DNA from: Candidatus Omnitrophota bacterium
Lineage (GTDB): Bacteria > Omnitrophota > Omnitrophia > Omnitrophales > Danuiimicrobiaceae
Direction of reading: 5' to 3'
Length of the DNA: 40,251 bases
Assembly (NCBI GenBank): GCA_016177155.1
Contig: JACOVU010000105.1
Coordinates: 1 to 40,251, forward strand
Made by a program: the position numbers and the translations under genes
The notes under the pieces: model-generated
The model's database searches: none
What the model was told of the DNA's origin: nothing
The model's input: the letters and a program-made list of their open reading frames with translations, nothing else
Shown here: positions 5,744-40,251 of the stretch, in pieces
How positions within the stretch are numbered: the first letter of the stretch is position 1
Layout: every line of letters starts with the position of its first letter

Positions 5744-7672
5744 TCAATCCCTCCCTTTTTCCTCTTGAATTGCCTCTTTGAGCATGCGGCAGTAAAGATC
5801 AAACCCCACTTGGTAGATAAATCCGCTCTGCTCGTGCCCTAGCACGTTTCCTGCGCCTCGGATTTCAAGATCTTCCAGCGCAATTTTAAGACCAGAGCCC
5901 AATTCACTGAACCGTTCAATGGCAGCAAGCCTTTTTTCAGCATCTTGGGTCAACACCCAATCTCGGGGAACAAGAAAATAGGCATAAGCCTGACGAGCAG
6001 TATGATAACGCCCCACCCGACCCCGCAATTGATAGAGATCCGAAAGCCCAAACGTGTCTGCACGATTGATGAGGATTGTATTCACATTGGGAATGTCGAT
6101 TCCTGATTCGATGATATTGGTGGAAACCAAACAATCAATCTTACCATCAATAAAATCCGACATCACTTTCTCAAGACTCGTCACGGGAAGTTGACCATGG
6201 GCAACCCCGAATGAGACATGCGGCAACAATTTTTTTAAGTAATTGTAAATCTTCTCGATAGACTCAACGCGATTGTGCACAAAATAAACCTGCCCTTTTC
6301 GCCCAAGCTCCCGCTCCATTGCCTGTTTGATTCGCAAATCATCAAATTCCAGAATTTCCGTAGTGATCGGAAGTCTTTGCTTCGGCGGCGTTTCAATCAC
6401 GGATAAATCGCGAACCCCAAGCAATGAAAGATGAAGCGTTCTCGGAATGGGCGTTGCTGTAAGTGTAAGCATATCAACGGTTTCCCGCAAGAACTTAAGG
6501 CGTTCTTTATGACGTACTCCAAAACGTTGCTCCTCATCTATAATCACAAGTCCCAAATCTTTAAACTCCACATCTTTGGAAAGAAGTCTGTGAGTTCCTA
6601 TAATGACGTCTATCTTTCCTTCTTTAAGCGCTTGAATGACTTTCTTTTGATTTCGTTTATCCAGGTAGCGGGAAAGAAGCTCAATTTCAACGGGCATCTG
6701 GTCCATCCTACGTTTCATCGTTAAATAATGTTGTTCGGCAAGTAACGTAGTTGGCACAAGGACGGCCACCTGTTTCCCCGCAAGGACAGCTTTAAAAGCG
6801 GCTCGAACGGCAACCTCCGTTTTCCCAAATCCAACATCTCCACAAAGCAATCGATCCATCGGCTTCGCCTGTTCCATATCACGTTTGACTTCTTCGGTGG
6901 CGCGTCTCTGATCCGGCGTTTCCTCATAGGAGAACGATTGTTCAAATTCGCGTTGTAACTCGGTGTTCGCTGGAAATTTGAAACCTGGGAGAATGCTTCG
7001 TCTTGCCTGAAGCGCTACCATCTCACGAGCAATCCCGCGAACCGCTAGACGCGTGCGTTCTTTAATCCGAACCCATTCTTTGCTCTGAAGCTTGGTGAGC
7101 TTCGGTTTTTTCCCTTCGAGACCTAGGTAACGCTCTAAAAACTGATGCTGGTCAAAGGGAAGATAAATAATTTCTTGATCGGCATACTCAATGGCAAGGT
7201 GTTTCTTGGGCGCACCTGAAATTTTGAGCGTTTTTGTGCCAAGGAACTTCCCAATTCCATATTCGATATGAACCACATAATCTCCCACCTGAATATCTTC
7301 AAGCTCACCGATAGGCTCAAATTCTTCGAGATGCGCCTTGAGACGCGCTCTTCTCCTTAAGAACGCTTCCGTAACTGGAAGCAGAAAGAGTTCTTCAAAG
7401 GTCGTCAGGCTTTTTCCTTCGTGAAGGGAATAATCACGAATCGTTTCAATGGCATCGAGGTGAAACTGAATTCGGATGGGAGCGCGGTACGAAAGCGGGT
7501 ACACATCAATGATGTGGCCGCGAACTGCATATTGACCGGGTTCTTCGACTACTTTTTCCTCTTGATAACCAAGGGTGTGTAACTTTTGGAGGAGTTCGTC
7601 CTGGGGAATTGACTCCCCGCTTCTTAAGCGGAAAACGTTAAGGTCTAACGGGGCTAAATTTTTTTCAGCCAT
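5744..7672 (-). CDS. mfd: Transcription-repair coupling factor, short form (D2-like module, RNAP-interaction domain and translocase only)
   Basis: 642 aa. Contains CarD/TRCF RID GDYVVHIEYGIGKFLG; helicase motifs GDVGFGKTEVA, DEEQRFGV, TATPIPRT and QLRGRVGR; and the TRG region LGHEQSG. An in-frame stop lies 13 codons upstream of the ATG. Confidence 0.9.
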   Translation of the reverse strand: MAEKNLAPLDLNVFRLRSGESIPQDELLQKLHTLGYQEEKVVEEPGQYAVRGHIIDVYPLSYRAPIRIQFHLDAIETIRDYSLHEGKSLTTFEELFLLPVTEAFLRRRARLKAHLEEFEPIGELEDIQVGDYVVHIEYGIGKFLGTKTLKISGAPKKHLAIEYADQEIIYLPFDQHQFLERYLGLEGKKPKLTKLQSKEWVRIKERTRLAVRGIAREMVALQARRSILPGFKFPANTELQREFEQSFSYEETPDQRRATEEVKRDMEQAKPMDRLLCGDVGFGKTEVAVRAAFKAVLAGKQVAVLVPTTLLAEQHYLTMKRRMDQMPVEIELLSRYLDKRNQKKVIQALKEGKIDVIIGTHRLLSKDVEFKDLGLVIIDEEQRFGVRHKERLKFLRETVDMLTLTATPIPRTLHLSLLGVRDLSVIETPPKQRLPITTEILEFDDLRIKQAMERELGRKGQVYFVHNRVESIEKIYNYLKKLLPHVSFGVAHGQLPVTSLEKVMSDFIDGKIDCLVSTNIIESGIDIPNVNTILINRADTFGLSDLYQLRGRVGRYHTARQAYAYFLVPRDWVLTQDAEKRLAAIERFSELGSGLKIALEDLEIRGAGNVLGHEQSGFIYQVGFDLYCRMLKEAIQEEKGRD

Positions 7673-7720
7673 GACTTTCCATTGAATAACCGTTCGATTA
7701 TTTATCGGAAGTCATGACAG
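7666..7720 (-). repeat. Hairpin repeat, family B, copy B1 (covers the mfd start codon)
   Basis: catgactttcc (7670-7680) pairs with ggaagtcatg (7707-7716). The sequence aligns with copies at 39962-40020 and 40119-40180. Confidence 0.65.
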
Positions 7721-12205: not shown

Positions 12206-12319
12206 TTATCCCTGTCTCTGTTTATGTTTTGGGTTACTGCACACAACGTAAACCACACGCTTACGCCGTACAATTTTACAATGTTCACAAATTCGTCTGA
12301 CTGAACTGCGTACTTTCAT
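12206..12319 (-). CDS. rpmJ: 50S ribosomal protein L36 (not in the ORF track; translated by hand)
   Basis: The minus strand reads ATG AAA GTA CGC AGT ... CAG GGA TAA, which gives [37 protein letters not shown] (37 aa, C-x2-C...C-x4-H zinc motif). It lies in the canonical position between infA and rpsM. Confidence 0.93.
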
Positions 12320-12410
12320 CCCCCACCACTTTCCAACTATTAATATAATAATTTAAAATTAACTTCCTTTTACGACGTTACAACGTCCCTCACCGAAAGT
12401 GGTGGGGGAT
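12318..12410 (-). repeat. Stop-to-start bridging hairpin, copy A2 (infA to rpmJ)
   Basis: Perfect 16-bp helix, 12318-12333 with 12395-12410. Sense strand: TGA-TCCCCCACCACTTTC ... GAAAGTGGTGGGGG-ATG. 61-nt AT-rich loop. Confidence 0.8.
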
Positions 12411-12625
12411 CAAATTCGATACGTAATTCTTCCCCGCGTCAGGTCATAGGGAGAAAGTTCCACTTTCACTCGATCCCCTGAAAGAATTCGGATGTAATGC
12501 ATCCTCATCTTGCCCGAAATATGGGCCAGCACCTTATGACCGTTATCGAGCTCGACCCGAAACATCGCATTCGGAAGCGGCTCAATGACAACTCCCTCTA
12601 CCTCAATGGCATCTTCTTTTGACAC
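12410..12625 (-). CDS. infA: Translation initiation factor IF-1
   Basis: 71 aa, [41 protein letters not shown].... The GTG start overlaps the map stop by 1 nt. Confidence 0.97.
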
Positions 12626-13413
12626 TAGACCATACTCACTTGATAGTTAACGTTCTCTTCACATTCCTGTGACCCTGTTAAATTTTCAGGACCGTGCTCT
12701 GTCAGTACAATGGTATCTTCATAATGCGCTGCCAATTGACGGTCTCGAGTCACCACTGTCCAGGCGTCATCCAAAATGTCAACTTCCCAACTCCCTGCGG
12801 CAACCATGGGTTCAATAGCAAGGACAAGTCCTGCTTCAAGCTTAGGTCCATGCCCAGGTTTCCCAAAATTAGGCACTTGTGGATCTTCGTGCATCGCTCG
12901 TCCAATGCCGTGTCCTACAAAATCACGAATCACTGAAAAACCATGAGATTCAACGTAATCTTGAATCTTGTGCGAAAGATCGCCTATCCGCGCACCCAAC
13001 TTCATCTGACTCATCCCCACATAAAGGGCACGCCGAGTTACTTCCATAAGTTCCAGCGCTTCCTCGCTTGCTTGGCCAATGGACCAAGTGCGTGCGGCAT
13101 CGCTGACATAACCTTCGTAAATCAATCCGATATCAAGACTTAAAAGATCCCCTTCATTCAATCTCCGCTTGGAGGGAATCCCATGCACCACTTCCTCATT
13201 CATCGAGGTGCAGATACAAGCAGGATAACCGCGATACCCCTTGAACGCTGGCTTTGCCTTCTGTGCTTGAATGAGCCGCTCGGCTTTGGCATCAATTTCA
13301 AGGGTCGTCATTGCCGGTTTAATGAACCGCTTTAATTCTTCGAAAACAATCTTGAGCCTTTGAGCAGCTTCCCGCATGATCTCGATTTCACGCTTGGATT
13401 TCAAAGAAATCAT
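12625..13413 (-). CDS. map: Methionine aminopeptidase type I
   Basis: 262 aa with [33 protein letters not shown] and EPMV. Confidence 0.95.
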
Positions 13414-13462
13414 CCCCCACCACTTTCATTTTCCCCACCTTTTCCAAAAAGTGGTGGGGGAT
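13412..13462 (-). repeat. Stop-to-start bridging hairpin, copy A3 (adk to map)
   Basis: Perfect 15-bp helix, 13412-13426 with 13448-13462. The 21-nt loop contains a third partial arm (ccccacc). Confidence 0.8.
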
Positions 13463-14115
13463 CATCGAACTTGAAGCTCACGAGCTAGTTCTGCTTGAAG
13501 GGGTTCAATCTCCAAATCTCCATTCACCACCTTAAGCAAGTTTCGCGTCCCATAAAATTCAATGAGCGGAGCGGTTTGCTTTTGATACACTTCAAGCCGC
13601 TTCCGAATGGTTTCGGGCGTATCATCCTTACGCTGAACCAAAGAACTGCCACACACATCGCAAATCCCCTCCCGTTTGGGTGGGATATTGCGAATGTGGT
13701 AATTCGCTCCACAATTCGGACAAGCACGTCTGCCTGAAAGACGATCGATCACCACTCGCTCAGAAGTACCGAATTCAAGTGCAAAATCGAGCGGCTTCCT
13801 CGCCTGCTTCAAAAAGGCCTCGAGTGATTCAGCTTGTTCCACCGTCCGAGGAAAACCGTCCAAAATAAATCCATTTCGAACGTCATCTGATTGGAGTCGT
13901 TCGCTCACCATCTCAACCACAAGCTCATCGGGAACTAATTTCCCACTGTCAATGAACGATTTTGCACGCTTCCCGAGCGCCGTCCCTTTCTGAATCTGAG
14001 ATCTCAAAAGATCTCCCGTCGAAATATGGGGAATCGAGTGTCGCTCGCTCAAAATCTTGGCATGCGTTCCTTTGCCTGCCCCCGGTGGTCCTAAAAGAAC
14101 AATTCGAAGCGACAT
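13462..14115 (-). CDS. adk: Adenylate kinase (Cys4 zinc lid)
   Basis: GPPGAGKGT P-loop; the lid is CPNCGANYH...CDVCGSSL. Confidence 0.96.
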   Translation of the reverse strand: MSLRIVLLGPPGAGKGTHAKILSERHSIPHISTGDLLRSQIQKGTALGKRAKSFIDSGKLVPDELVVEMVSERLQSDDVRNGFILDGFPRTVEQAESLEAFLKQARKPLDFALEFGTSERVVIDRLSGRRACPNCGANYHIRNIPPKREGICDVCGSSLVQRKDDTPETIRKRLEVYQKQTAPLIEFYGTRNLLKVVNGDLEIEPLQAELARELQVR

Positions 14116-18579: not shown

Positions 18580-18888
18580 TTAGATAATTTCGTTACACTT
18601 CTTACAAATACGCTGCTTTGTACCATCGGACAAAAATTGATAGCCCGTACGAGTCACTTTGGAACAGCGAGGGCAAACCAGCTGAACATTGGAAGATTGC
18701 ATTTTGCCTTCCACCTGCGAGATCCCGCCCTTTGGATTCTGCTGGCTTGGGCGAAGATAAACTTTCATGTAATTCAGTCCTTCAATGAGAATACGGCTTT
18801 CTGACGGAAACACACGGAGCACTTTCCCTTTTTTCCCCCGCTCCTTCCCGGTAAGCACCGTAACCATATCCCCTTTTTTAAGTTTCAT
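18580..18888 (-). CDS. rplX: 50S ribosomal protein L24 (C-terminal CxxC...CxxC)
   Basis: MKLKKGDMVTVLTGKERGKKGKVLRV... (KOW motif). The start is trimmed to the ATG at 18886-18888; the ORF-track TTG extension runs through the hairpin element. Confidence 0.94.
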   Translation of the reverse strand: MKLKKGDMVTVLTGKERGKKGKVLRVFPSESRILIEGLNYMKVYLRPSQQNPKGGISQVEGKMQSSNVQLVCPRCSKVTRTGYQFLSDGTKQRICKKCNEII

Positions 18889-18991
18889 CCCCCACCACTT
18901 TCTTATACACTGAATTATAAATATGACGTTTGTTTTCAATTAATGACGCAAGAACCGATATCAAACTTATTTTTAGAAAGTGGTGGGGGAT
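18887..18991 (-). repeat. Stop-to-start bridging hairpin, copy A4 (rplN to rplX)
   Basis: Perfect 17-bp helix, 18887-18903 with 18975-18991. 71-nt AT-rich loop. Confidence 0.8.
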
Positions 18992-18996
18992 CATGA

Positions 18997-19381: not shown

Positions 19382-19636
19382 TTAACTGATCGAACTAATC
19401 ACTTCTACCAATTTCCATCGCTTGCTTTTGGAGATTGGTTTTGTTTCTGCAATACGAACTTTATCGCCGACTTTAGCTAATTTCTTCGCATCATGAACTG
19501 GATACCGCTTCCTCACCCGAATCACCTTTTTATAAGCGGGGTGCTGCACCAGACGTGTGATCTGTACCACAGTGGTCTTGTCCATTTTGCTGCTTAAAAC
19601 GATTCCAACTTGTTCTTTTGGATGACGCTCAGCCAT
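19382..19636 (-). CDS. rpsQ: 30S ribosomal protein S17
   Basis: 84 aa. The ATG overlaps the rpmC 3' end by 8 nt. SD GGAGG lies within the embedded repeat. Confidence 0.95.
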   Translation of the reverse strand: MAERHPKEQVGIVLSSKMDKTTVVQITRLVQHPAYKKVIRVRKRYPVHDAKKLAKVGDKVRIAETKPISKSKRWKLVEVISSIS

Positions 19637-19871
19637 TTTTCTTCCCTCCGGGCCTATCGGCCCGTAGTGCTGGAGGAAGTTCCATTTCTCTTTTTACCGT
19701 AAGTACTTTTGCGAGATCGCGCTTTGTTTTTCGCAATTTGGAAAGGTCTTCCAGTTTTGCCAGTTTTGCATCAAAACGAAGTTGAAAGAGCTCTTTCTTG
19801 AGCGCTTCTGACTTTTCGCTTAACTCATCTACTGAAAGCGACCTCAAATCTTTTGCCTTGAGTGTTGGCAT
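19629..19871 (-). CDS. rpmC: 50S ribosomal protein L29 with a C-terminal PPALRADRPGGKKNG tail
   Basis: 80 aa, LRSLSVDELSEKSEALKKELFQLRF.... Confidence 0.94.
   Translation of the reverse strand: MPTLKAKDLRSLSVDELSEKSEALKKELFQLRFDAKLAKLEDLSKLRKTKRDLAKVLTVKREMELPPALRADRPGGKKNG
19642..19676 (-). repeat. 35-nt hairpin repeat embedded in the rpmC 3' coding end (copy C1)
   Basis: ttccctccgggcctatcggcccgtagtgctggagg is 31/35 identical to 21170-21204. Confidence 0.8.
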
Positions 19872-21132: not shown

Positions 21133-21606
21133 CTATTTAGCTCCCGCGCCTACCGCTTGCTTTTCTTTTTTCCCTCCGGGCTTATCAGCCCGTAGGGCCG
21201 GAGGCTTTCCAAATATTTTCTTGCTCTTCGTTTTTGTCTCTTGCGTATCGGTTTTGGCGGCCGAAACAGGCAATTCCTTTTCGCCCAAAACAACGGTTAG
21301 ATGAGACATTCGTTTTAAAATCACATCGGCTCGGCCCATCGAACGCGGCATATAACGTTTGAGGGACGGCCCGCCATCGGCCTTAATTTCTCGAATGAAA
21401 AGACGATTCTCATCCATTTTTTTCACCTTGGCATTTGCCTGAGCACTCTTAAGCGTCTTGGCCACAAGCTTTGCGCCCTTTTGTTTGAGCGTAGACAAAA
21501 CGGCAAAGGCGGTGGTGACAGGCTTATACCGTACGGTGTCAATCACCAGCCTCAATTTCCGAGGTGAGACTCTTAAATATCGTGTAATAGCTTTTGCTTC
21601 CATCAT
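21133..21606 (-). CDS. rplV: 50S ribosomal protein L22 with a ~45-aa C-terminal extension that contains PPALRADKPGGKK
   Basis: MMEAKAITRYLRVSPRKLRLVIDTVR.... Confidence 0.95.
   Translation of the reverse strand: MMEAKAITRYLRVSPRKLRLVIDTVRYKPVTTAFAVLSTLKQKGAKLVAKTLKSAQANAKVKKMDENRLFIREIKADGGPSLKRYMPRSMGRADVILKRMSHLTVVLGEKELPVSAAKTDTQETKTKSKKIFGKPPALRADKPGGKKEKQAVGAGAK
21170..21204 (-). repeat. 35-nt hairpin repeat embedded in the rplV 3' coding end (copy C2)
   Basis: ttccctccgggcttatcagcccgtagggccggagg. Two of the four differences from C1 are compensatory within the inner stem (GGGCC/GGCCC versus GGGCT/AGCCC). Confidence 0.8.
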
Positions 21607-39926: not shown

Positions 39927-39961
39927 TTTTTTGTCCGATCCCAGTTGCCTTGCCAAAAACT

Positions 39962-40020
39962 GGCAGCCCTGACTTACATTAAAATAGGTTTTTGTCTATT
40001 CATCGGAAGTCAGGACAGCC
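39962..40020 (-). repeat. Hairpin repeat, family B, copy B2 (secE leader)
   Basis: ggcagccctgactt (39962-39975) pairs with aagtcaggacagcc (40007-40020) at 12 of 14 positions. The sense strand CTGTCCTGACTTCCGATGAATA...AATGTAAGTCAGGGCTG closely matches B1. Confidence 0.65.
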
Positions 40021-40092
40021 GTTGAGCTTCCGAATTAAAATCCATTCTGACCTATTTTTTGTTGCTCAATGGCAGCCCTGACCCACATCAAA

Positions 40093-40128
40093 TAATCTAT
40101 GGCAGGCCATTAATCTATGGCAGGCCAT
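40093..40128. repeat. Perfect 18-bp tandem duplication (2 copies)
   Basis: taatctatggcaggccat occurs at 40093-40110 and again at 40111-40128. Confidence 0.9.
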
Positions 40129-40180
40129 GACTTTCATTAAAATTAACTTTTGCCTATTCAAAATAGGTAGTCATGACCAG
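40119..40180 (-). repeat. Hairpin repeat, family B, copy B3 (secE leader)
   Basis: ggccatgac (40123-40131) pairs with gtcatgacc (40170-40178). There is an inner hairpin, cctatt-caaa-atagg. Confidence 0.55.
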
Positions 40181-40229
40181 CACTGATCACTATTAAAGTT
40201 TCAATTAGCTATTAATTCGGAAATCAGTG

Positions 40230-40251
40230 CAGGCCAGGAGGGATTCGAACC
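40230..40251 (-). tRNA. 3' end of a tRNA gene; the remainder is outside the window. tRNA-Trp is the usual neighbour of secE, but the identity cannot be read here
   Basis: The minus strand reads GG-TTCGAAT-CCCTC-CTGGCCT-G, that is a T-loop, the 3' half of the T-stem, a 7-nt acceptor strand and discriminator G. No CCA is encoded. Confidence 0.6.

What the first reader, a model, noticed from the sequence alone, without database searches (positions are those of the whole stretch)
19642..19676. Hairpin repeat embedded in coding sequence gives L29 and L22 the same C-terminal peptide (copy in rpmC)
The 35-nt stretch 19642-19676 is 31/35 identical to 21170-21204. Both lie in frame at the 3' ends of r-protein genes and encode PPALRAD(R/K)PGGKK. 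On the sense strand the element reads CCUCC-N8-[GGGCY-GAUA-RGCCC]-GGAGG. Two of the four substitutions between the copies are compensatory in the inner stem (C:G versus U:A), which indicates a structural constraint at the nucleic-acid level. In the rpmC copy, the terminal GGAGG is the SD of rpsQ, whose ATG lies 8 nt downstream and overlaps the rpmC stop. The upstream CCUCC can therefore mask the rpsQ SD until a ribosome translates the L29 tail. Two readings are possible: a repeat element has been taken up into coding sequence, or a peptide tail is selected in its own right. L22 and L29 both lie near the polypeptide exit tunnel.
Basis: partly seen in the sequence, partly recalled or inferred. 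Interest (0 to 1): 0.65.

Follow-up and report, generated by a model that had tools for sequence, protein, structure and literature searches.

The report
Tiny hairpin insert in ribosomal genes
The shared tail of ribosomal proteins L29 and L22 comes from two copies of a 33-base hairpin element, apparently mobile, that is inserted precisely and in frame; near-identical copies sit in many unrelated genes of uncultivated groundwater bacteria.

Summary
Window 19644-19676 and 21172-21204 (minus strand) are two copies, 29/33 identical, of a 33-nt element with consensus CCTCCGGCCCTACGGGCCGATAGGCCCGGAGGG. Each copy differs from the consensus at two different positions, so neither was copied from the other.

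Both are clean 33-nt (11-codon) insertions with no target duplication. Relatives in Omnitrophota have the empty sites: L29 is 69 aa rather than 80, and none of about 90 L22 homologues carries the insert.

The same 33-mer, usually identical, occurs in more than 60 other loci in MAGs and metagenomes labelled Omnitrophota and Patescibacteria, among others. It lies in both orientations and mostly inside housekeeping genes (acs, purD, cysS, gatA, infB and others). It never lies in a frame where it would carry a stop codon. It also occurs in tRNA loops, nested inside other copies, and directly upstream of small GIY-YIG nuclease genes.

Family-wide covariation supports a three-segment hairpin, CTCC-X'-N3-X-N4-X'-GGAG. 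The orthologous rpmC copies, however, decay without compensating changes.

Best reading: a selfish miniature palindromic insertion that is read through by the ribosome. The peptide and the GGAGG upstream of rpsQ are by-products. How it moves is unknown. It is a new variant of a known kind (compare RPE, intragenic REP and SDR elements).

The parts
19644..19676 (-). Element copy A, 33 nt, CCTCCAGCACTACGGGCCGATAGGCCCGGAGGG. Inserted in frame between codon 65 (Leu) and codon 77 (Lys) of rpmC. Encodes PPALRADRPGG.
   Evidence: Two mismatches to the consensus. It is an exact 33-nt insertion relative to L056 (...GAACTT|AAGAAAAATGG) and L057. The same site is occupied in L137-L142 and L055.
21172..21204 (-). 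Element copy B, 33 nt, CCTCCGGCCCTACGGGCTGATAAGCCCGGAGGG. Inserted in frame in the Lys-rich C-terminal extension of rplV. Encodes PPALRADKPGG.
   Evidence: Two mismatches to the consensus, at the paired positions 18 and 23. It is absent from about 90 L22 homologues examined. The empty site in L055 is TTTGGGCGA|AAAAAGACA.
19629..19871 (-). rpmC (ribosomal protein L29), 80 aa. It is 69 aa in most relatives.
21133..21606 (-). rplV (ribosomal protein L22), 157 aa. It is 143-150 aa in close relatives.
19645..19649 (-). GGAGG at the 3' end of copy A. It lies 8 nt upstream of the rpsQ ATG and acts as an SD brought in by the element.
   Evidence: Read from the sequence. It is absent from the empty-site relatives L056 and L057.
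19382..19636 (-). rpsQ (S17). Its start codon overlaps the rpmC stop codon (ATGGCTGA).

Best explanation
The two repeats are separate insertions of a 33-nt, GC-rich, quasi-palindromic element. It belongs to a family with the architecture CTCC-X'(5)-N3-X(5)-N3/4-X'(5)-GGAG, in which the middle segment X can pair with either flanking X'.

Shown:
- Each window copy is a precise 33-nt (11-codon) addition with no target-site duplication, relative to empty sites in related Omnitrophota.
- The two copies each differ from the family consensus at two different positions, so each derives from a consensus-like source and not from the other.
- Near-identical copies lie in more than 60 unrelated loci, mostly inside genes and in either orientation, and only in frames without a stop codon.
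- The 3' end of rpmC carries several different members and states of the family in different relatives: canonical, decayed, nested, and a GGTCC-type member.

Inferred:
- The element is selfish and mobile, or is copied by gene conversion. It needs its hairpin structure in order to spread.
- It survives only where 11 extra Pro/Gly/Arg/Ala-rich residues do no harm, such as the C-terminal tails of L29 and L22, and it is simply translated.
- After insertion it has no required function and decays.
- The GGAGG it places 8 nt before the rpsQ ATG is an accidental SD, which may or may not have been co-opted.

The enzyme that moves it is unknown. The one lead is that family members sit 11-21 nt upstream of small GIY-YIG nuclease genes lodged in tRNA genes.
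For: Empty sites and exact 33-nt insertion.

Dispersed copies: 9 loci in species-representative genomes, about 31 in metagenomes, and 37 with a relaxed pattern, with up to 6 per MAG. None in viral contigs.

Intragenic position: Pfam domains run through the insert in PurD, YfiH-like, MiaB-like, CysRS, Acs, QueG, PyrK, RmlD, GatA and an ABC ATPase.

Frame census of about 24 independent intragenic copies: F1 5, F2 6, R2 5, R3 6. R1 has 2, and both are the T variant, which removes the TAG. F3, which contains TAG, has 0. My estimate: (5/6)^24 = 0.013 for F3 alone.

Covariation. Hairpin 13-18:23-28 plus 8-11:30-33 is 93.5% paired with 6 pairs changed on both sides, reached by 0 of 500 shuffles. Hairpin 6-10:14-18 is 95.3% paired. 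With N at positions 8, 16 and 25 in the search pattern, 34 of 37 loci are fully complementary, against about 6% expected by chance. The architecture search gave 95 hits against 0 in shuffles.

Nested insertions in loops of other members: L055 and L059.

Insertions in tRNA loops: tRNA-Trp anticodon loop and D loop.

Decay in place: single-lineage stem changes in orthologous rpmC copies are uncompensated.

GIY-YIG adjacency: L011, L012, L059, L060, L157.
Against: No transposase or other mobilising gene was identified. Only 2 of about 36 independent copies in the first two scans have a GIY-YIG gene next to them, and the window has none.

No presence/absence alleles were seen in the four groundwater runs that hold the window. 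Those runs are stored as contigs, which hide rare variants.

Two orthologous gene pairs have flanks only 79-82% identical, yet their elements are 33/33 identical. That does not fit a single ancient neutral insertion. It needs repeated insertion at the same site, gene conversion, or selection on the DNA sequence.

Translation of the insert has not been observed directly; no RNA or proteome data were available.

Ten of 33 copies are flanked by 7-nt direct repeats or heptamer arrays. The window copies are not, so the insertion chemistry may not be uniform.
Confidence: 0.72

Rival explanations
1. Co-opted translational-coupling device. In rpmC the element's CCUCC pairs with its GGAGG and hides the rpsQ SD until a ribosome finishing L29 melts the hairpin. 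The copy is kept for that reason.
For: GGAGG lies 8 nt from the rpsQ ATG. The predicted fold of the rpmC copy has the CCUCC/GGAGG outer stem (-17.7 kcal/mol, z -3.3). The rpmC site is occupied in at least 8 related lineages, and most keep a purine-rich GAGG-like 3' end. The same window has three other hairpins in which a stop-codon-proximal arm pairs with the SD and ATG of the next gene, at infA/rpmJ, adk/map and rplN/rplX.
Against: Most relatives have no element and no GGAGG there, and couple rpsQ through the ATGGCTGA overlap. The CCUCC/GGAGG ends are generic to the family at all loci, including the rplV copy, whose GGAGG is 35 nt before the stop and serves no start codon. The rpmC copies decay in the stems without compensation. 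In a 101-nt context the fold is not exceptional (z -1.2).
Confidence: 0.12
2. The peptide PPALRAD(R/K)PGG is itself selected as a functional tail on two proteins near the ribosomal exit tunnel.
For: The same frame (F1) is used in both window copies and in all canonical rpmC copies.
Against: The same DNA is read in other frames and orientations elsewhere (LRPYGPIGPE, PPGLSARRAG, LRAYRPVGPE, PSGPIGPKGRR), and it sits in tRNAs and intergenic DNA. The L22 insert is unique to this lineage among about 90 homologues. The rpmC site also carries a different 11-aa insert, TSGPMDRKVQR, from a related element. The peptide degenerates in relatives, for example to PPAVGTDRPRE.
Confidence: 0.03
3. The 33 nt are not translated. 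They are removed from the RNA as a mini-intron, or skipped by the ribosome as with T4 gene 60 or the mitochondrial byp elements.
For: It is a stable GC-rich hairpin, sits in tRNA anticodon loops, and interrupts conserved enzymes inside Pfam domains.
Against: The length is exactly 3 x 11. No copy lies in a frame with a stop codon, and the two copies in frame R1 carry the variant that removes the stop. That pattern is expected only if the insert is read. The interrupted tRNA copies lie next to an intact tRNA and look like pseudo-fragments. There is no Rfam match.
Confidence: 0.04
4. The element is a conserved low-copy binding site for a host DNA- or RNA-binding protein, comparable to parS or dif, and is kept by selection on its sequence.
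For: The sequence is near-identical across lineages. Copy number per genome is low. It works in either orientation. It is 33/33 identical where the flanks are only 79-82% identical.
Against: Close relatives differ in presence or absence. Copies are nested in one another. Several subfamilies differ in stem sequence while keeping complementarity. The rpmC copies decay. There is a link to mobile GIY-YIG cassettes.
Confidence: 0.06

Closest known systems
Rickettsia palindromic elements (RPE; Ogata et al. 2000, as summarised in PMC10969869 and PMC3733652)
   Same: Palindromic repeats inserted in frame into unrelated housekeeping genes and read through, which adds a peptide segment. RNA genes are also hit. 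They are regarded as selfish DNA that is tolerated where the extra residues do no harm.
   Different: RPEs are about 100-150 bp and confined to Rickettsia, with many copies per genome. This element is 33 nt and unrelated in sequence. It occurs in Omnitrophota and Patescibacteria MAGs at a few copies per genome.
REP / REPIN elements, including intragenic GTAG- or CGTC-tagged REPs (PMC3733652, PMC3116915)
   Same: Imperfect palindromes of 20-40 nt. Some families insert inside ORFs, for example in the PVC bacterium Opitutus terrae. They are thought to be non-autonomous mobile DNA.
   Different: REPs carry a conserved terminal GTAG or CGTC, are mostly extragenic, number in the hundreds, often occur as inverted pairs, and are linked to RAYT transposases. 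Here the equivalent position is variable (A, T or C), copies are mostly intragenic and single, and no RAYT link was seen.
Small dispersed repeats (SDR4-6) of Nostocaceae (Elhai et al. 2008, Genome Res 18:1484). The paper is not held in the library. Its features are recalled from memory, apart from what PMC4390886 and PMC5861425 state.
   Same: Very small (21-27 nt) hairpin repeats that insert precisely. [quoted passage not shown] From memory, they are nested in one another and associated with tandem heptamer repeats. Here too 10 of 33 copies are flanked by 7-nt direct repeats or heptamer arrays, and nesting occurs.
   Different: A different phylum and sequence. PMC5861425 reports SDRs only in Nostocaceae. 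SDRs are high-copy and mostly intergenic. This family is low-copy, mostly intragenic, and shared between phyla.
Mitochondrial GC clusters and byp elements (yeast VAR1 GC cluster; Magnusiomyces byps). Recalled from memory, not checked here.
   Same: GC-rich palindromic inserts of about 30-50 nt found inside protein-coding genes, including a ribosomal protein gene. They spread by gene conversion.
   Different: These are organellar. Byps are skipped by the ribosome and may contain stop codons. Here the avoidance of stop-containing frames indicates plain read-through.
Free-standing GIY-YIG homing endonuclease genes in tRNA clusters (phage T4 SegB; PMC2988022, PMC13096335)
   Same: Small GIY-YIG ORFs lodged beside or inside tRNA genes. 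Here the layout is [tRNA 5' fragment with a hairpin insert]-[GIY-YIG ORF]-[intact tRNA].
   Different: The Seg proteins are phage enzymes with DNA-binding domains. No companion 33-nt hairpin module that also spreads on its own into protein genes has been described for them, to my knowledge.

Membership tests
REP/REPIN (RAYT-mobilised) | Imperfect palindrome of 20-40 nt | tested here: met
   33 nt. Predicted hairpin of -20 kcal/mol. Covariation supports it.
REP/REPIN (RAYT-mobilised) | Conserved GTAG or CGTC tetranucleotide at one end | tested here: not met
   The only GTAG (reverse strand) is internal, and its T/A position is variable: 26 A-form, 8 T-form, 1 C-form.
REP/REPIN (RAYT-mobilised) | High copy number, mainly extragenic, often in inverted pairs | tested here: not met
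   At most 6 copies detected per MAG. About two thirds of copies lie inside ORFs. There is one tandem direct pair (L043) and no inverted pairs.
REP/REPIN (RAYT-mobilised) | RAYT (IS200/IS605-like) gene flanked by the repeats | not tested
   Whole genomes could not be fetched. No such gene was noticed in the loci held.
MITE | Terminal inverted repeats | tested here: met
   CCTCCGG...CCGGAGG (7 bp); 9 of 10 positions pair when extended.
MITE | Target-site duplication | tested here: not met
   There is none at either window copy when compared with the empty sites. Ten of 33 other copies do have 7-nt direct repeats, so the family as a whole is inconclusive.
MITE | Parent IS with the same ends; size 50-500 bp | tested here: not met
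   The size is 33 nt. No IS with these ends was seen. The only recurrent neighbouring gene is a small GIY-YIG ORF.
Rickettsia palindromic elements | In-frame insertion in ORFs, compatible with read-through | tested here: met
   Translation itself was not observed.
Rickettsia palindromic elements | Sequence family, size (about 100-150 bp) and host genus | tested here: not met
   33 nt, in Omnitrophota and Patescibacteria.
Ribosomal-protein operon regulatory RNA / translational-coupling hairpin | Conserved at the same place in relatives that share the operon | tested here: not met
   Most L29 genes of relatives lack it. No L22 gene has it. No Rfam family matches.
Self-splicing or spliced intron | Removed from RNA, with no constraint on frame or stop codons | tested here: not met
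   Stop-containing frames are avoided. There is no Rfam intron match at the element. RNA data were not available.

The most novel reading that the evidence does not exclude
The 33-nt hairpins are the non-autonomous partners of a class of small GIY-YIG nuclease cassettes that lodge in tRNA genes. Nuclease-made breaks would be repaired from hairpin-bearing templates, which would scatter an almost invariant 33-mer, in frame, through essential genes. The element is shared across phyla (Omnitrophota and CPR/Patescibacteria) living in the same groundwater. That would be a new kind of bacterial mobile system. It would also be the smallest mobile element known to me (from memory, not searched systematically) that remodels conserved proteins.
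Probability: 0.2. Interest if true: 0.8.

Novelty: new variant of a known kind. Interest (0 to 1): 0.6.

Why it matters
It shows that even core ribosomal proteins of uncultivated bacteria acquire peptide segments from ultra-small selfish DNA. That matters for annotation, for phylogenomic alignments of ribosomal proteins, and for interpreting lineage-specific tails.

The family is unusual in four ways:
- It is very small (33 nt).
- It is almost invariant across organisms with 40-66% GC that are labelled as different phyla.
- It lies mostly inside genes.
- It returns repeatedly to the same sites (the 3' end of rpmC, acs, cysS).

Working out how it moves could reveal a new insertion mechanism, possibly tied to GIY-YIG nucleases and tRNA genes. 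It could also provide a natural marker of gene flow among groundwater nanobacteria.

Tried and rejected
- Rfam scan of the whole window: no family matched.
- Viral contigs: no copy.
- Exact look-up of the window's L29: not on record.
- RNA runs: none. The four DNA runs are stored as contigs only and show no empty-site joints. Splicing and population polymorphism therefore could not be tested.
- Hypothesis that insertion targets hairpin tips. This holds for tRNA loops, nested copies and two terminator-like hairpins. Across 33 loci, flanking complementarity is barely above control: 21% against 13% with a stem of 4 bp or more. Rejected as a general rule.
- GTAG-REP membership: rejected, because that position is variable.
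- GIY-YIG gene in the window: none found.
- Idea that the rplV copy was duplicated from the rpmC copy: rejected. The two share no derived change, and each is two steps from the consensus.
- Elhai et al. 2008 could not be read, so the comparison with SDRs rests partly on memory.
- Taxonomy of individual contigs was not checked independently. The 'binchicken' MAG labels (Planctomycetia, Saccharibacteria, Gammaproteobacteria) may be unreliable. The Omnitrophota and Hainich Patescibacteria labels come from several independent studies.

Full report
**1. The observation**

The genes of this window run on the minus strand. It is an rpoB/C-S10-spc-type ribosomal protein region. rpmC (L29) is 19629..19871 and rplV (L22) is 21133..21606.

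The stretches 19642-19676 and 21170-21204 are 31/35 identical. The repeat finder reports 39 nt at 87%.

Both copies are in frame and encode PPALRADRPGG (L29) and PPALRADKPGG (L22). The four differences lie at element positions 6, 9, 18 and 23. Positions 18 and 23 are the closing pair of the GGGCY-GAUA-RGCCC hairpin.

GGAGG lies 8 nt before the rpsQ ATG, which overlaps the rpmC stop codon (ATGGCTGA). All the factual statements of the finding are correct.

**2. Both copies are precise 33-nt insertions**

The closest L22 homologues are named Candidatus Omnitrophica/Omnitrophota. They are up to 81% identical and 143-150 aa long.

None of about 90 L22 sequences inspected has the motif. Removing 11 residues from the window protein gives ...KIFGK|KKEKQAVGAGAK, which lines up with relatives such as ...RIFRKKKEKQTAGAV.

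At the DNA level:
- Relatives L056 and L057 have ...GAAATGGAACTT|AAGAAAAATGGCTGA in rpmC.
- The window has exactly CCTCCAGCACTACGGGCCGATAGGCCCGGAGGG between these two halves, with no duplicated target bases.
- In rplV the empty site of L055 is TTTGGGCGA|AAAAAGACA.

L29 is 69 aa in most relatives and 80 aa in the window.

**3. The same 33-mer is dispersed in other genomes**

A scan of one genome per species found nine loci. Eight of them carry the identical sequence CCTCCGGCCCTACGGGCCGATAGGCCCGGAGG(G).

A metagenome scan with a looser pattern returned 41 loci. About 31 are true copies and about 10 are chance matches without the hairpin. Counting both scans and the window, 26 copies have the exact A-form and 8 the T-form (CCTTCGGG). 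Viral contigs hold none.

Each window copy is two substitutions from this consensus, at different positions. They are therefore two independent descendants of a consensus-like source, not a duplication of one another.

Hosts range from 37 to 66% GC. Their labels are mostly Omnitrophota, with Patescibacteria bins from the Hainich aquifer. Some other labels I regard as uncertain.

**4. Context**

About two thirds of the independent copies lie inside long ORFs, and Pfam domains continue across the insert. The hosts include PurD, a YfiH-like protein, a MiaB-like methylthiotransferase, CysRS, acetyl-CoA synthetase, QueG, PyrK, RmlD, GatA and an ABC ATPase. IF-2, transketolase and a GT2 glycosyltransferase are identified by inspection only.

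Both orientations occur. The frames used give:

| Frame | Peptide | Copies |
|---|---|---|
| F1 | PPALRADRPGG | 5 |
| F2 | LRPYGPIGPE | 6 |
| R2 | PPGLSARRAG | 5 |
| R3 | LRAYRPVGPE | 6 |
| R1 | PSGPIGPKGRR | 2 |
| F3 | contains TAG | 0 |

The two R1 copies are both the T-form, which removes the TAG that the A-form has in that frame. This avoidance of stop codons is what is expected if the insert is translated and stop-bearing insertions are purged. It argues against splicing or ribosomal bypass.

**5. Structure**

The family has three 5-nt segments, X', X and X', flanked by CTCC and GGAG:

CCTCC-GGCCC-TAC-GGGCC-GATA-GGCCC-GGAGG

A search for that architecture gave 95 hits (both strands) in the loci held and none in shuffles. 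It revealed members with other stems: GGCTC/GAGCC, GCTTC/GAAGC and GACTC/GAGTC.

On 17 distinct variants:
- The hairpin 13-18:23-28 with its extension 8-11:30-33 is 93.5% paired, with six pairs changed on both sides. No shuffle of 500 reached this.
- The alternative hairpin 6-10:14-18 is 95.3% paired.
- The outer stem 1-5:28-32 is 96.5% paired.

Two of those variants were found with a search that required the structure, so I ran a cleaner test. A genome scan with N at the three covarying positions (8, 16, 25) gave 37 loci. Of these, 34 are fully complementary (CGC 13, GCG 20, TAT 1), against about 6% expected by chance.

It does not hold in place, however. Among the orthologous rpmC copies of relatives (L137-L142), the single-lineage changes in stems are not compensated, and one copy (L139) is heavily decayed. 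The structure seems to be needed for spreading, not for a role at the insertion site.

**6. Signs of mobility**

- Presence or absence among close relatives (section 2).
- Nested insertions. In L055 the rpmC copy carries a second 33-nt family member in its GATA loop, which makes L29 91 aa. In L059 a member sits in the first loop of another.
- Insertions into the anticodon loop of tRNA-Trp fragments at two positions one base apart (L007, L012, L042), and into a tRNA D loop in both orientations three bases apart (L011, L060).
- The 3' end of rpmC is a recurrent site. L29 homologues carry the canonical insert, decayed versions, the nested form, or a different member in another phase. That last one is A+CCTCCGGTCCTATGGACCGTAAGGTCCAGAGG, giving TSGPMDRKVQR in L140. 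Carriers and non-carriers are interleaved in a tree of L16+L29+S17.
- acs (L026/L051) and a GT2 gene (L017/L044) carry the element at the same codon in orthologues. The flanks are only 79% and 82% identical, while the element is 33/33 identical. This needs re-insertion, gene conversion or sequence selection.
- Ten of 33 copies are flanked by 7-nt direct repeats or heptamer arrays (permutation p < 5e-5). The window copies are not.

**7. A lead on the mechanism**

A small GIY-YIG nuclease ORF starts 16 nt downstream of an element copy in L011 and in L012. In both, the element interrupts a duplicated tRNA 5' fragment.

The closest homologues of the L011 protein (L059, L060, L157; 68-71% identity) all have a family member 11-21 nt upstream of the ATG.

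Across 79 GIY-YIG loci from many phyla, a recurrent layout (seen in about 20 loci examined in detail) is [tRNA 5' fragment with a GC-rich hairpin insert in a loop]-[GIY-YIG ORF]-[intact tRNA].

A close relative of the window organism has a GIY-YIG ORF between rplE and rpsH in this same operon.

Most element copies, including both in the window, have no such gene nearby. This is a hypothesis, not a result.

**8. The rpsQ SD idea**

The rpmC copy is predicted to fold with CCUCC paired to GGAGG, so masking is physically plausible. Against it:
- Those ends belong to every member of the family.
- Empty-site relatives manage with the ATGGCTGA overlap alone.
- The rplV copy has no start codon to serve.

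I rate co-option at about 0.1. The same window has three unrelated hairpins that pair a stop-codon region with the next gene's SD and ATG, which keeps the question open.

**9. Comparison and verdict**

The element behaves like Rickettsia RPEs and intragenic REPs (PMC10969869, PMC3733652). In size, precision and nesting it resembles cyanobacterial SDRs (PMC4390886, PMC5861425; Elhai 2008 from memory).

It fails the defining features of REP (terminal GTAG, high copy number, extragenic position), of MITE (size, TSD, parent IS) and of RPE (size, host).

I file it as a new variant of the known kind 'small palindromic repeats inserted in frame'. It has unusual traits: 33 nt, near-invariance across phyla, an intragenic bias, a three-segment hairpin, and a possible GIY-YIG/tRNA connection.

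Noticed in passing
window 12314-12413, 13408-13465, 18883-18994 (minus strand): Three copies of a long inverted repeat, TGATCCCCCACCACTTTC-N(19-87)-GAAAGTGGTGGGGGATGA, at the infA/rpmJ, adk/map and rplN/rplX junctions. The 5' arm overlaps the upstream stop codon (TGA). The 3' arm contains the SD-like GGTGGGGG and the ATG of the next gene. Predicted stability is -31 to -41 kcal/mol. Relatives L055 and L057 have no spacer between rplN and rplX, so this is also an insertion. It may be a second hairpin element family or a translational-coupling device.
   Followed up: partly
window 7666-7720 and 39961-40158: Another hairpin repeat family of about 55 nt, CTGTCMTGACTTCC...GTCAKGGCTG(CCA). One copy lies near 7.7 kb. 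Three or four lie in the roughly 300-nt spacer upstream of secE.
   Followed up: partly
window 40228-40251 (minus strand): The window begins inside the 3' end of a tRNA gene (GGTTCGAATCCCTCCTGGCCTGCA), upstream of secE-nusG. By position this is probably tRNA-Trp, the gene that carries the element in the Patescibacteria loci L007 and L012.
   Followed up: no
L058 (= L011) 1790-2078: The intact tRNA downstream of the GIY-YIG ORF holds a group I intron (Rfam RF00028, 77 bits). One Omnitrophota tRNA locus therefore carries three selfish items: the hairpin element, the GIY-YIG ORF and the intron.
   Followed up: no
L059-L136 (GIY-YIG loci): In CPR, Verrucomicrobiota, Kiritimatiellota and Bacteroidota MAGs, small GIY-YIG ORFs are preceded by a tRNA 5' fragment. 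Its anticodon or D loop holds lineage-specific GC-rich hairpins, for example GTCTG-TCTCGCTTCGCGAGA-TCTGGCGAAGCCAGA-CAAAA. The ORF is followed by the intact tRNA. This looks like a widespread, undescribed cassette architecture.
   Followed up: partly
contig of P0009 and L056 5837-6424: Close relatives of the window organism have foreign ORFs inside the spc operon. One is a GIY-YIG ORF between rplE and rpsH. The other is a 195-aa ORF without Pfam hits on the opposite strand, where rplX is expected.
   Followed up: no
window 19671-19779: In three groundwater runs the dominant strain differs from the window at six positions, all within this 109-nt part of rpmC. Two of them are inside the element: 19671 T>C restores the consensus G6, and the other is 19672 G>A. 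This looks like a short recombination tract.
   Followed up: no
L043 4570-4642: Two family members lie in tandem, separated by the heptamer-like GAGTTTCG, inside gatA. Together they add about 25 residues within the Amidase domain.
   Followed up: partly
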